Of a DNA stretch of 64,000 bases, positions 12,001 to 14,919 are shown piece after piece. This DNA is from Escherichia coli (GTDB lineage: Bacteria > Pseudomonadota > Gammaproteobacteria > Enterobacterales > Enterobacteriaceae), in NCBI RefSeq assembly GCF_044324785.1, contig NZ_CP172127.1; one strand, 5' to 3'. Every line of letters starts with the position of its first letter. Within the stretch, counting starts at the first letter, position 1. Position numbers: made by a program.

Positions 12001-14919
12001 TTTATGTTCCCTATGACGGCAACCTCGATCTGGCGCGGATTCTGACCAACAATTTGGGGGCAGTTGAAGTTTCCAAAGGGTATTCGTCGCTGCTTCAGGG
12101 GCCTAATCAGATGGGCGGAGCCATTAATATCACTACCCAGAAGCCAACAAAACCTCTGGAAGCAAATCTGGGATATCGCCAGGGATGGAGCCGTAGCCAG
12201 GACAATGCCTACGATATGCATGCTTCATTTGCCGCCAGCAGCGATCTGGGGTATTTGCAAGTCAGCGGTAGCCAGCTAAAGCAGGATTTTCTCGGCCTGC
12301 CGCATGGTGTAAATAATGATATTGCAGGCAAACACGGCAAGATGATTAATTCATCGGCTGATGATAAACGCGGCATTGTGAAGCTCGGTTTTACACCACG
12401 CGAAAACGATGAATACACATTGACTTACATTAAGCAGGATGGTGAAAAAGATAACCCGCCATACAGTGGAAGTAGTGGTCAAAAATCACGCTACTGGCAG
12501 TGGCCAGAGTATGACAAAGAAAGTTTTTATTATCAGGGAACGACCCAACTAAACGATCGTTTTACCCTGAAAAGTCGGCTGTATCGCGACACCTTTGAAA
12601 ATACGCTGATGATGTACAACTCGCTGGCTGATTTGAAAAATAAAAAAGGCAGCTACAGCCATTATTCCGATTACAGCGACGGTGCCGGGTTACAACTGGC
12701 AGCCGATGTGCGTGAAAACGATCTGCTGTCGTTTGCCGTTAACTGGAAAGATGACGTACACCGGGAAAAAGGTGCGCCGCACGCCGCTTACGATCGCTAT
12801 GAAGATCGTACCTGGTCGCTCGCCAGTGAATATCAATGGGCTGCTGCCGATAATGTCGATGTCGTGGCTGGAATCAGCTATGACTGGCGCGATAGCGTAG
12901 AAGCGAAAAAACATGAGAAAGATGGCAGCATCACCCATTATGACGACAACAATCAGTCAGCTTTTAACTGGCAGGTGATGGGGAAATACCACTTTGCCAA
13001 TGAAGACACGCTGGCGCTTTCGTACTATGACCGCACACGCTTTCCGACGCTGAAAGAACGTTATACCACGTCCAAACCTGCGTATAACCAGATAGCGATT
13101 GTTAACCCGCAGCTCAAACCGGAACGCGCGCGCGGGGTGGATTTAACCTGGAATGGTGCCTTCACGCACGACTGGGGGTTTGAGGTCAGCGTTTACTATA
13201 ACCGGGTGAGTGATGCCATCCTCTCGCACAATATCGATGCCGATACCATTCAAAATCAGAACAGCGGCACGGTGGATTACAGCGGTCTGGATGCCGGTAT
13301 TAAGGGGAAAATCAGCAATATACTGGATGTAGGATTGAGCTACGCCCTGATCCACGCTGATGCCAAACGCAAAGACATCGGCAAGATAACCGCTCTGCCA
13401 ACGCAGACAATGACCGCATGGATGACTCTCAAACCGTGGGAGCCGTTAAGCGTAACGCTGTCGGAAGAGGCGCGTTCCTCCAGCTACAGCAACAGTGACG
13501 GTTCACAAAAAGCCGCCGGTTTTGCGGTGACCCACATTCGAGCCGATTACACCTTAGGTCATGGCTTCAGCGTCAATGCGTCGGTCAATAACCTGTTTGA
13601 TACCAAATATGCCTACAGTGAAGGGTTTATTGAAGAAGGTCGCAATTTCTGGGCAGGTATCGAGTATACGTTCTGATGTGAAAGCGGATAGCGGCATCTG
13701 TATCGCTATCCGCCTTATGAAAATCTTATTCTCTTCGCAGGAGGCGGAATACGCCCAGCACCAGGATAGCGCCCACCACCGCCACCAGGAAGCTGTGCAA
13801 ATTAAAACCGCTGATGGTGCCGCCAATGCCAAACATGGTCGCCAGCCAGCCGCCGACCACCGCACCGACTATCCCGAGAATACAGGTCAGGAAAAATCCA
13901 CCACCATCACGCCCCGGCATGATTAGCTTGGCGATAATGCCGGCTATCAGGCCAAAAATAATCCAGGCAATAATTCCCATGTTCAGGCCCTCGTTTCGAT
14001 GAATCGGACGCAAGAACTGCTTACGTCAACGCTCTAAGTATAGGCAAGGGCGGAATCGATGCTGGGCGTATGTCGGCTGATTTAAGAACAACATGTAAAA
14101 AATATTCACGCATTTGTATTAAGTTTTGTTAACTGTGACCGATAAACCAAAGACAGTTTGTCAGTCAGGAGTTTTTCCGCGTGAGTCATTACCATGAGCA
14201 GTTCCTGAAACAAAATCCGTTAGCCGTCCTGGGCGTGTTACGCGATTTGCACAAAGCCGCAATTCCTTTGCGTATCAGTTGGAATGGCGGGCAGCTGATC
14301 AGCAAAATACTGGCAATAACCCCGGATAAACTGGTGCTGGATTTCGGCAGTCAAGCCGAAGATAACAACGCTGTGTTAAAGGCGCAGCACATTACCATTA
14401 CCGCCGAAACCCAGGGCGCGAAAGTCGAATTTACTGTTGAACAACTACAGCAGAGTGAATACTTGCAGCTTCCGGCATTTATTACCGTACCGCCTCCCAC
14501 CTTGTGGTTTGTACAACGACGCCGATATTTCCGCATCTCCGCCCCACTCCATCCGCCTTATTTTTGCCAGACCAAACTGGCGGATAACAGTACGTTACGT
14601 TTCCGCCTGTATGATTTGTCGTTAGGCGGCATGGGTGCATTACTGGAAACAGCAAAGCCTGCCGGATTGCACGAAGGCATGCGCTTCGCTCAGATTGAAG
14701 TCAACATGGGGCAATGGGGTGTTTTTCACTTTGACGCCCAGTTAATCTCAATCAGCGAGCGCAAAGTGATTGATGGCAAGAATGAAACCATCACCACTCC
14801 CCGTCTGAGCTTCCGTTTTCTTAACGTCAGCCCGACGGTGGAGCGGCAATTACAGCGGATTATTTTCTCTCTCGAGCGGGAAGCCCGGGAGAAAGCGGAC
14901 AAAGTGCGCGACTGATTTA

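What the first reader, a model, noticed from the sequence alone, without database searches (positions are those of the whole stretch)
14913..14919. ycgR and emtA are convergent with stop codons one nucleotide apart
The ycgR stop (14913..14915) and the emtA stop (14917..14919, minus strand) leave no room for a terminator, so the 3' ends of the two mRNAs must overlap antisense. This could couple expression of a flagellar brake and a murein transglycosylase.
Basis: seen in the sequence. Interest (0 to 1): 0.15.

Follow-up and report, generated by a model that had tools for sequence, protein, structure and literature searches.

The report
Tight ycgR–emtA junction with hidden hairpin
The two E. coli genes do end one base apart, which is a common and already catalogued arrangement, but emtA's missing end-of-transcript hairpin is not absent: it is written into the coding sequence of its neighbour ycgR on the opposite strand.

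Summary
The ycgR stop is TGA at 14913-14915, a single T follows at 14916, and the emtA stop (TAA, minus strand) is at 14917-14919. RefSeq annotates E. coli 042 and K-12 the same way.

It is not unusual. In 200 kb of K-12, 9 of 33 convergent gene pairs have a gap of 1 nt or less. The emtA-ycgR pair is already listed among 165 convergent "excludons" (ExcludonFinder, NAR 2025). A bicyclomycin-sensitive (Rho-dependent) termination region on the emtA strand inside ycgR is also published (Adams 2021).

The minus strand at 14790-14850, 67-127 nt past the emtA stop and inside ycgR codons ~204-224, folds at -37.8 kcal/mol. That is the most stable 61-nt window of the whole 64 kb.
- Synonymous recoding of ycgR never reproduces it (0/200).
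- It is identical in 98.7% of matching E. coli records.
- It is replaced by a second embedded hairpin or by an intergenic hairpin in other Enterobacteriaceae.

Best reading: emtA is terminated by Rho inside ycgR, and the embedded stem-loop marks or protects its 3' end. Antisense overlap is therefore real. Regulatory coupling of the two genes is untested and probably weak.

The parts
14181..14915 (+). ycgR CDS (flagellar brake, PilZN+PilZ), stop TGA 14913-14915
   Evidence: ORF list; RefSeq annotation of E. coli 042 and K-12; Pfam PF07317/PF07238 on homologues
14916..14916 (.). single intergenic nucleotide (T; G in several other Escherichia)
14917..15528 (-). emtA (mltE) CDS, 203 aa lipoprotein lytic transglycosylase; stop TAA = 14917-14919
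14119..14146 (+). sigma-28 (FliA) promoter of ycgR, TTAAGTTTTGTTAACTGTGACCGATAAA; TSS at G 14152
   Evidence: Sequence is identical to the FliA ChIP-seq motif and RegulonDB ycgRp in Fitzgerald 2014 (PMC4183435). ycgR RNA 104 in wild type versus 0 in delta-fliA.
15588..15615 (-). sigma-70-like promoter candidate for emtA (CTGACA-16-TATCAT, 10/12)
   Evidence: consensus match only, not evidence of function
14790..14850 (-). Embedded stem-loop in the emtA 3' extension (+67..+127 after the emtA stop), antisense to ycgR codons ~204-224. About 26 bp including 4 G.U pairs, apical loop AAGAA. 5' arm 14850-14823, 3' arm 14817-14790.
   Evidence: MFE -37.8 kcal/mol, z -7.5. Rank 1 of 42,628 61-nt windows in the window. 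Conserved in 12 taxa. 0/200 synonymous recodings reach it. Identical in 5352/5424 matching E. coli records versus 602/4985 and 3444/5328 for two control ycgR segments.
14775..14789 (-). U-rich tail after the stem-loop (GGUUUCAUUCUUGCC; GGUUUCAUUUUU in relatives)
   Evidence: imperfect, and 6 nt from the stem in most relatives
14577..14776 (-). C>G stretch downstream of the stem-loop (C 0.25-0.31, G 0.19-0.24): candidate rut region
   Evidence: position relative to the hairpin as in the Dar & Sorek 2018 model
14658..14658 (-). Position equivalent to K-12 1244050: peak of the published bicyclomycin-sensitive (Rho) termination region, antisense to ycgR
   Evidence: Adams 2021 supplementary file 2: reads 91/20 without BCM and 136/111 with BCM, Rho score 3.71, p 5.5e-7. 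Coordinate mapping is by me and assumes no indels.
14951..15011 (+). Best local structure in the ycgR 3' extension (inside emtA); not conserved, so not counted as an element
   Evidence: -24.6 kcal/mol, quantile 0.007; z from -2.4 to +2.1 across 13 taxa
14906..14927 (.). Weak 6-bp hairpin centred on the junction (GCGCGA...TCGCGT); probably coincidental
   Evidence: z -1.3 (+) and -2.2 (-), no U tract; lost in Citrobacter and Enterobacter

Best explanation
This is an ordinary, ancient, compact convergent gene junction with no intergenic terminator. emtA transcription runs past its stop codon into ycgR on the antisense strand. There the RNA forms a very stable stem-loop at +67..+127 nt, encoded by ycgR's own codons. 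Rho then loads on the C-rich stretch downstream and terminates around +150 to +400 nt. 3'-to-5' exonucleases are expected to trim the RNA back to the stem-loop, which would define the mature emtA 3' end near window 14783-14790. Every emtA mRNA would therefore carry at least ~127 nt complementary to the end of the ycgR coding region. ycgR, driven only by its sigma-28 promoter, has no conserved 3' structure and is presumably stopped by Rho somewhere inside emtA. Shown: the junction, the hairpin with its conservation and codon-level selection, the published Rho-sensitive region, and the published RNA-seq overlap. Inferred: trimming to the hairpin, the rut position, how ycgR terminates, and that any cross-regulation is weak.
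For: Junction and annotation. No intergenic terminator. Published overlap: ExcludonFinder Table 1. Published Rho region at 1244050 (+), antisense to ycgR. Hairpin: -37.8 kcal/mol, z -7.5; most stable 61-nt window in 64 kb on either strand; more stable than any of the 39 other 3' extensions of 20 K-12 convergent pairs. Selection beyond the protein: recoded sequences fold at -17.4 +/- 2.9 versus native -37.8 (0/200), with the same result for Salmonella and for the different hairpin of Pluralibacter. Codon identity is raised at ycgR codons 200-229 (P about 0.02). The segment is invariant in 98.7% of matching E. coli records versus 12% and 65% for two control segments. Strand: the emtA-sense strand is more stable than its complement in 17 of 18 taxa, because G.U pairs become A.C on the other strand. 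Natural experiment: all 15 tight-junction taxa carry an embedded hairpin of -29 kcal/mol or better (type 1 or type 2). The 3 taxa with a 37-182 nt spacer lack type 1 (-12.6 to -16.4) and have an intergenic GC or REP-like hairpin instead. The anatomy of stem-loop, then C>G, then Rho zone matches Dar & Sorek 2018, who include termini inside downstream coding regions.
Against: No Term-seq 3' end is listed at K-12 1243400-1243999, nor under the names ycgR or emtA, in the curated tables of Adams 2021. The predicted mature 3' end is therefore unconfirmed; low expression (91 reads per 800 nt) may explain this. Covariation support is weak: one covarying pair, score 0.093 versus 0.079, with 31 of 500 shuffles as high. 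The stem is kept mostly by invariance. The 18 taxa are not independent; there are perhaps 3-4 independent hairpin states. The Rho score uses 800-nt windows, so its position is coarse. The C>G bias is modest. Nothing is known about the ycgR 3' end.
Confidence: 0.6

Rival explanations
1. Functional excludon. The obligatory antisense overlap makes emtA and ycgR repress each other, through RNase III cleavage of the duplex or through polymerase collisions. This would link peptidoglycan remodelling inversely to the c-di-GMP flagellar brake.
For: The pair is in the published excludon list. At least 127 nt of perfect complementarity is guaranteed by the hairpin position. The convergent arrangement is conserved across Enterobacteriaceae. 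In Salmonella in egg white emtA rises while ycgR falls.
Against: The excludon call rests on coverage overlap only; validation of convergent pairs by p19 dsRNA capture was not feasible. Three genera tolerate 37-182 nt spacers with their own hairpins, so the overlap itself is not conserved. The opposite regulation in egg white follows whole regulons. Both genes are weakly expressed, so collisions should be rare (inference). A terminator-like hairpin close to the stop limits the overlap rather than promoting it.
Confidence: 0.15
2. The embedded stem-loop is a Rho-independent (intrinsic) terminator of emtA, not just a protective structure. Most emtA transcripts would end about 8 nt after it, in the U-rich tail.
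For: The stem is long and G+C-rich with a 5-nt apical loop. In E. coli 042 and K-12 it is followed 2 nt later by UUUCAUUC, 6 U in 8. An A-rich run (AGAAAAUAAU) lies upstream. ExcludonFinder reports TransTermHP-predicted overlapping terminators for 146 of 165 convergent excludons, without naming which.
Against: Downstream coverage on this strand rises from 22% to 82% of upstream with bicyclomycin, so much of the termination is Rho-dependent. In most relatives the stem is 4 bp shorter, leaving 6 nt before the U run. The alternative type 2 hairpins have no U tract. The consensus terminator scan does not call it. No Term-seq end is listed there.
Confidence: 0.2
3. The hairpin works in the ycgR mRNA (plus strand), for example as a translational pause or stability element for the PilZ domain, and has nothing to do with emtA.
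For: The plus-strand version is also unusually stable: -25.7 kcal/mol, z -5.4, quantile 0.004. It also exceeds its synonymous recodings, with 1 of 200 as stable.
Against: The plus strand is weaker than the minus strand in 17 of 18 taxa, because invariant G.U pairs become A.C mismatches. The hairpin disappears exactly where an intergenic hairpin follows emtA, which a ycgR-internal role does not predict. Its position shifts between lineages relative to the YcgR protein (type 1 versus type 2) but stays close to the emtA stop.
Confidence: 0.08
4. The junction and the hairpin are by-products of genome compaction and of the YcgR amino-acid sequence, and neither is under selection.
For: Tight convergent junctions are common. 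Most stem columns are invariant and lie in a conserved protein segment.
Against: Recoding with the same amino acids never comes within 10 kcal/mol of the native hairpin in three taxa. It is the top-ranked structure in 64 kb. Hairpin types and intergenic hairpins are distributed in a complementary way.
Confidence: 0.03

Closest known systems
Protective 3' stem-loops of Rho-dependent transcripts (Dar & Sorek, NAR 2018, PMC6061677)
   Same: A stable stem-loop downstream of the stop codon, mild C-over-G enrichment after it, and bicyclomycin-sensitive read-through. The authors explicitly include termini lying inside the coding region of the downstream gene.
   Different: The steady-state 3' end at this hairpin has not been observed. 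The E. coli tail is more U-rich than their class average. The stem (about 26 bp, -37.8 kcal/mol) is more stable than any other 3' extension I sampled in K-12.
Convergent excludons (ExcludonFinder, Sanmartin et al., NAR 2025, PMC12288877)
   Same: emtA-ycgR is itself an entry in their Table 1. It has a short intergenic distance and 3' transcript overlap.
   Different: The defining functional feature, mutually exclusive expression through interference or RNase III, has not been shown for this pair. The paper gives no details on it, and no supplement was readable.
Bidirectional terminators between convergent genes, driven by RNA polymerase collision (Ju et al. 2019, as described in bioRxiv 10.1101/2022.10.23.513370)
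   Same: A convergent pair with a stem-loop flanked by an A-rich run upstream and a U-rich run downstream.
   Different: The stem-loop lies 67-127 nt inside ycgR, so it cannot end ycgR transcripts without truncating the gene. Termination on the emtA strand is Rho-sensitive, unlike that class.
Other tight convergent pairs in E. coli K-12 with hairpins embedded in the partner gene (fepE into fepC, entS into fepB)
   Same: Gap of -4 or 3 nt, with a strong hairpin on the transcribed strand within 120 nt of the stop, inside the partner CDS: -32.6 at +9 and -29.2 at +59.
   Different: Those were only scored for energy here. No conservation or recoding test was done for them.

Membership tests
Convergent excludon | Adjacent genes on opposite strands, tail to tail | tested here: met
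Convergent excludon | Transcripts of the two genes overlap | tested here: met
   Taken from published data, not measured by me: ExcludonFinder Table 1, and the Rho region 259 nt into ycgR on the emtA strand
Convergent excludon | Mutually exclusive or antagonistic expression caused by the overlap | not testable with these tools
   The only data are Salmonella microarray values explained by regulons. The delta-fliA RNA-seq gene list is not held.
Convergent excludon | RNase III processing of the duplex | not testable with these tools
   p19 capture was uninformative for convergent pairs
Rho-dependent terminator with protective stem-loop (Dar & Sorek) | Read-through increases when Rho is inhibited | tested here: met
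   Adams 2021 supplementary file 2: Rho score 3.71, p 5.5e-7
Rho-dependent terminator with protective stem-loop (Dar & Sorek) | Energetically stable stem-loop upstream of the termination zone | tested here: met
Rho-dependent terminator with protective stem-loop (Dar & Sorek) | C-over-G enrichment downstream of the stem-loop (rut) | tested here: met
   Over +141..+340, C is 0.25-0.31 and G 0.19-0.24; the bias is modest
Rho-dependent terminator with protective stem-loop (Dar & Sorek) | Precise steady-state 3' end immediately after the stem-loop | tested here: inconclusive
   No entry in the Adams 2021 curated Term-seq tables. Other data sets were not readable.
Canonical intrinsic terminator | G+C-rich stem directly followed by a U tract | tested here: inconclusive
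   6 U in 8 starting 2 nt after the stem in E. coli 042 and K-12; 6-nt spacer in relatives; none after type 2 hairpins; not called by the scan
Canonical intrinsic terminator | Termination independent of Rho | tested here: not met
   Bicyclomycin-sensitive region
Collision-type bidirectional terminator | Stem-loop placed between the two genes so that both transcripts end at it | tested here: not met
   The stem-loop lies inside the ycgR CDS. The junction hairpin is weak and not conserved.

The most novel reading that the evidence does not exclude
The embedded hairpin may be a dual-coding element that evolution keeps re-inventing: type 1, type 2 or an intergenic version in different genera. It would fix a structured antisense overlap of at least ~127 nt, and so make emtA transcription a tunable antisense regulator of the c-di-GMP flagellar brake, or the reverse. 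If so, YcgR's C-terminal sequence evolves under constraint from its neighbour's 3' end.
Probability: 0.12. Interest if true: 0.5.

Novelty: new member of a known kind. Interest (0 to 1): 0.25.

Why it matters
The junction and the transcript overlap are already in the annotation and in a published catalogue, so the finding as written adds nothing new.

The useful addition is a concrete, testable case of a 3'-end RNA structure selected inside the coding sequence of the gene on the other strand. The evidence is codon-level, and there is a natural complementation pattern across genera.

This matters in three modest ways:
- Synonymous sites in ycgR are not neutral.
- "No intergenic space" does not mean "no terminator".
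- Recoding or deleting ycgR (a common motility and c-di-GMP experiment) could alter emtA mRNA 3' end formation.

It does not establish regulatory coupling between motility braking and cell-wall remodelling.

Tried and rejected
**Structures near the junction**
- The consensus terminator scan of 13600-16700 found nothing at or near the junction.
- The 6-bp hairpin centred on the junction is not significant and is not conserved outside Escherichia.
- I looked for a matching hairpin for ycgR inside emtA. The best candidate, 14951-15011 (+), is not conserved.

**Conservation and covariation of the embedded hairpin**
- Covariation on 13 taxa is weak: one covarying pair, and the shuffle control is not clearly exceeded.
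- Synonymous conservation within Escherichia alone is not significant (P 0.37).

**Database and literature searches**
- Rfam gave no family for the region; the only hit is a chance-level Chlorobi-1 match at E = 0.2.
- Searches for direct 3'-end data failed. Supplements of the ExcludonFinder, Dar & Sorek, 3'-UTR valves, Nanopore and Rend-seq papers are not held.
- The SMRT-Cappable-seq and TERMITe supplements do not mention either gene.
- Ju et al. 2019 is not held.
- The delta-fliA differential-expression list of Fitzgerald 2014 is not among the held supplements.

**Technical failures**
- A strict FliA pattern search missed the promoter because of one mismatch. The promoter was then confirmed by reading the sequence and matching the published motif.
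Full report
**1. Observation**

The window reads ...GTG CGC GAC TGA T TTA CAT CGC... 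at 14904-14925.
- ycgR is the ORF 14181..14915 (+), with TGA at 14913-14915.
- emtA ends on the minus strand with TAA, which is TTA at 14917-14919 on the plus strand.
- One T (14916) lies between the two stops.

The window is 99.7% identical to E. coli 042 over this locus. RefSeq annotates the same coordinates there. In K-12, emtA is 1243180..1243791 (+) and ycgR is 1243793..1244527 (-). The mechanical ORF list extends emtA upstream to 241 aa. The annotated protein is the 203-aa lipoprotein starting at the GTG at 15528.

**2. Is it unusual? No.**

I read the K-12 annotation of four 50-kb stretches and found 33 convergent CDS pairs.
- Nine pairs have a gap of 1 nt or less or overlap: ymfI/ymfJ, tfaP/tfaE, ymgM/cvrA, emtA/ycgR, flk/yfcJ, fepE/fepC, ybdL/ybdM, yhbQ/yhbS and yrbL/mtgA.
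- Thirteen pairs have a gap of 10 nt or less.
- One stretch was chosen because it holds the pair itself. Without that pair the figure is 8 of 32.

The pair is already published. ExcludonFinder (NAR 2025, PMC12288877) lists emtA-ycgR among 165 convergent "excludons" whose RNA-seq-defined transcripts overlap in at least half of 58 MG1655 samples.

**3. Surroundings**

ycgR has a sigma-28 promoter at 14119-14146. It is identical to the FliA ChIP-seq motif and to the RegulonDB ycgRp of Fitzgerald et al. 2014. In that study ycgR RNA falls from 104 to 0 in delta-fliA.

emtA has a sigma-70-like match at 15615..15588. This is a consensus match only.

The simple scan finds no terminator-like site anywhere near the junction. 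A 6-bp hairpin centred on the junction is weak (z -1.3 and -2.2), has no U tract and is lost outside Escherichia.

**4. Published 3'-end information**

Adams et al. 2021 (eLife, PMC7815308), supplementary file 2, lists a Rho termination region at K-12 1244050 on the plus strand, classed as antisense to ycgR.
- Coverage upstream/downstream is 91/20 without bicyclomycin and 136/111 with it.
- The Rho score is 3.71 and p is 5.5e-7.

That strand is the emtA strand, and the position is 259 nt past the emtA stop (about window 14658). So emtA transcription does run into ycgR and is stopped there largely by Rho.

Their curated Term-seq tables contain no 3' end named for either gene, and none at 1243400-1243999. 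No other 3'-end data set could be read.

**5.

While testing synonymous-site conservation I found raised codon identity at ycgR codons 200-229. Folding the minus strand there gave a 61-nt stem-loop at 14850..14790.
- It lies +67..+127 nt after the emtA stop.
- It folds at -37.8 kcal/mol, with z = -7.5 against dinucleotide shuffles.
- It is the single most stable 61-nt window in the whole 64-kb window on either strand: rank 1 of 42,628, against a background of -12.0 +/- 4.7.
- It is more stable than the best structure in any of the 39 other 3' extensions of 20 K-12 convergent pairs, including those with ordinary intergenic terminators.

The complementary plus-strand fold is only -25.7 kcal/mol, because four G.U pairs become A.C mismatches.

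**6. Is the hairpin selected?**

Several lines of evidence say yes.
- **Recoding.** I recoded the last 50 ycgR codons with random synonymous codons under local codon usage. The best emtA-strand hairpin was -17.4 +/- 2.9 kcal/mol (minimum -26.8) against the native -37.8, so 0 of 200 reached it. Salmonella gave the same result (-32.5 versus -17.0 +/- 2.7). So did Pluralibacter (-34.5 versus -18.3 +/- 3.1).
- **Population conservation.** The 61-nt segment is identical in 5352 of 5424 matching E. coli records. Two control 61-nt segments of ycgR are identical in 602 of 4985 and 3444 of 5328.
- **Conservation across species.** The hairpin is kept at -31.5 to -37.8 kcal/mol in six Escherichia loci, three Citrobacter, Salmonella, Enterobacter sp. 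BIGb0383 and an unnamed contig.
- **Strand.** The emtA-sense strand is the more stable one in 17 of 18 taxa.
- **Contrast with the ycgR side.** The best structures in the ycgR 3' extension are weaker (mean -24.9 versus -32.8 kcal/mol, Wilcoxon p = 3e-4). The best E. coli candidate there is not conserved.

Covariation proper is weak: one pair shows C-G, U-A and U-G, and the covariation score is 0.093 versus 0.079 for shuffles. The stem is held mostly by invariance, so the recoding test carries the argument.

**7. A natural experiment**

- **Different embedded hairpin.** Kosakonia, Pluralibacter and Scandinavium (gap 0, -4, 0) lack or weaken this hairpin. They carry a different one closer to the emtA stop, with the core CGCUCCAGCG...CGCUGGAGCG at +4..+70, at -29 to -33 kcal/mol.
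- **Intergenic hairpin instead.** Lelliottia, Enterobacter oligotrophicus and Pseudescherichia have spacers of 37, 38 and 182 nt. These hold a G+C-rich or REP-like hairpin right after emtA. At the E. coli hairpin position they fold at only -12.6 to -16.4 kcal/mol.

All 15 tight-junction taxa therefore have an embedded hairpin, and the 3 taxa with an intergenic one do not have the E. coli type. This fits a requirement for one stable stem-loop shortly after the emtA stop, wherever it can be placed. The taxa are related, so this amounts to perhaps three or four independent events, not eighteen.

**8. Mechanism**

The order of elements on the emtA strand is:
1. stop codon;
2. stem-loop (+67..+127);
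3. a stretch with C above G (+141..+340);
4. the bicyclomycin-sensitive drop (about +259).

This is the anatomy that Dar & Sorek 2018 described for Rho-dependent transcripts. They found precise steady-state 3' ends immediately after stable stem-loops, with C-over-G enrichment downstream and protection from PNPase and RNase II. They state that this includes termini inside the coding regions of downstream genes.

I therefore read the hairpin as emtA's 3'-end protecting structure, with Rho doing the termination.

A contribution from intrinsic termination cannot be excluded in E. coli, where UUUCAUUC starts 2 nt after the stem. But the spacer is 6 nt in most relatives, the alternative hairpins have no U tract, and the region is Rho-sensitive.

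How ycgR transcripts end is unknown. The antisense of emtA is C-rich from +121 onward, so Rho is the likely agent (inference).

**9.

The antisense overlap is real and in practice obligatory. If the stem-loop is part of the emtA mRNA, that mRNA carries at least ~127 nt complementary to the end of the ycgR coding region.

"No room for a terminator" is true only of the intergenic space.

Coupling of expression is untested.
- The excludon label rests on coverage alone, and dsRNA validation failed for convergent pairs in general.
- The opposite behaviour of the two genes in Salmonella in egg white follows their regulons.
- Three genera have separated the genes with their own hairpins.
- Both genes are weakly transcribed, so collisions should be rare (inference).

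I put real cross-regulation at about 0.15.

**10. Comparison, novelty and score**

The junction and the overlap are already known. The embedded hairpin is not described in anything I could search, but it belongs to known kinds: protective stem-loops of Rho-dependent transcripts, and terminators lying in a convergent neighbour. Other K-12 pairs show the same pattern, for example fepE into fepC and entS into fepB.

Hence: a new member of a known kind, of modest interest (0.25). Its main value is as a clean example of dual coding under selection, and as a caution for anyone recoding or deleting ycgR.

Noticed in passing
L011 (NZ_FXUZ01000104.1, 381 bp); protein P0099: A 381-bp contig in a Staphylococcus cornubiensis assembly encodes a 95%-identical YcgR fragment. 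A 336-aa YcgR homologue (68% identity) is deposited under the fungus Astraeus odoratus. Both look like enterobacterial contamination of those assemblies.
   Followed up: no
window 11685-13676 (+) and upstream: A TonB-dependent receptor gene, with a modD-like gene before it, sits next to ymgE, as in E. coli 042 and Salmonella. K-12 has ycgY and treA at this place instead.
   Followed up: no
window 52891-52951 (+): The second most stable 61-nt hairpin of the window (-35.5 kcal/mol) lies in a region that, from my own reading of the sequence, looks like hflD coding sequence (not verified with any tool). Its nature is unknown.
   Followed up: no
window 29878-29956 (-): The only Rfam match at gathering score in the whole window is the C0299 sRNA (111.9 bits).
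   Followed up: no
window 14181-15528; loci L003-L005, L010: EmtA is 98.5-99.5% identical across Escherichia species, whereas the adjacent YcgR is only 87-98% identical. The two convergent genes evolve at very different protein rates.
   Followed up: partly
K-12 loci L015 (fepE/fepC, entS/fepB) and L014 (flk/yfcJ): Other tight convergent pairs in K-12 also carry strong hairpins inside the partner gene on the transcribed strand: fepE -32.6 kcal/mol at +9 and entS -29.2 at +59. Embedded 3' hairpins may be a general solution.
   Followed up: partly
window 14850-14875 (+) / 14851-14863 (-): The embedded hairpin is flanked on the emtA strand by an A-rich run upstream (AGAAAAUAAU), which reads as AUUAUUUUCUCUCUC after the plus-strand hairpin. 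This is a layout like a bidirectional terminator, but inside the ycgR reading frame, 45-65 nt before its stop.
   Followed up: no
L001 5538-7208 versus window 16637-18373: RefSeq marks cvrA as a truncated pseudogene in E. coli 042, while the window has an intact 578-aa ORF, the same CDS length as annotated for K-12 cvrA (1737 nt). Fitzgerald 2014 also lists a weak intragenic FliA site in cvrA.
   Followed up: no
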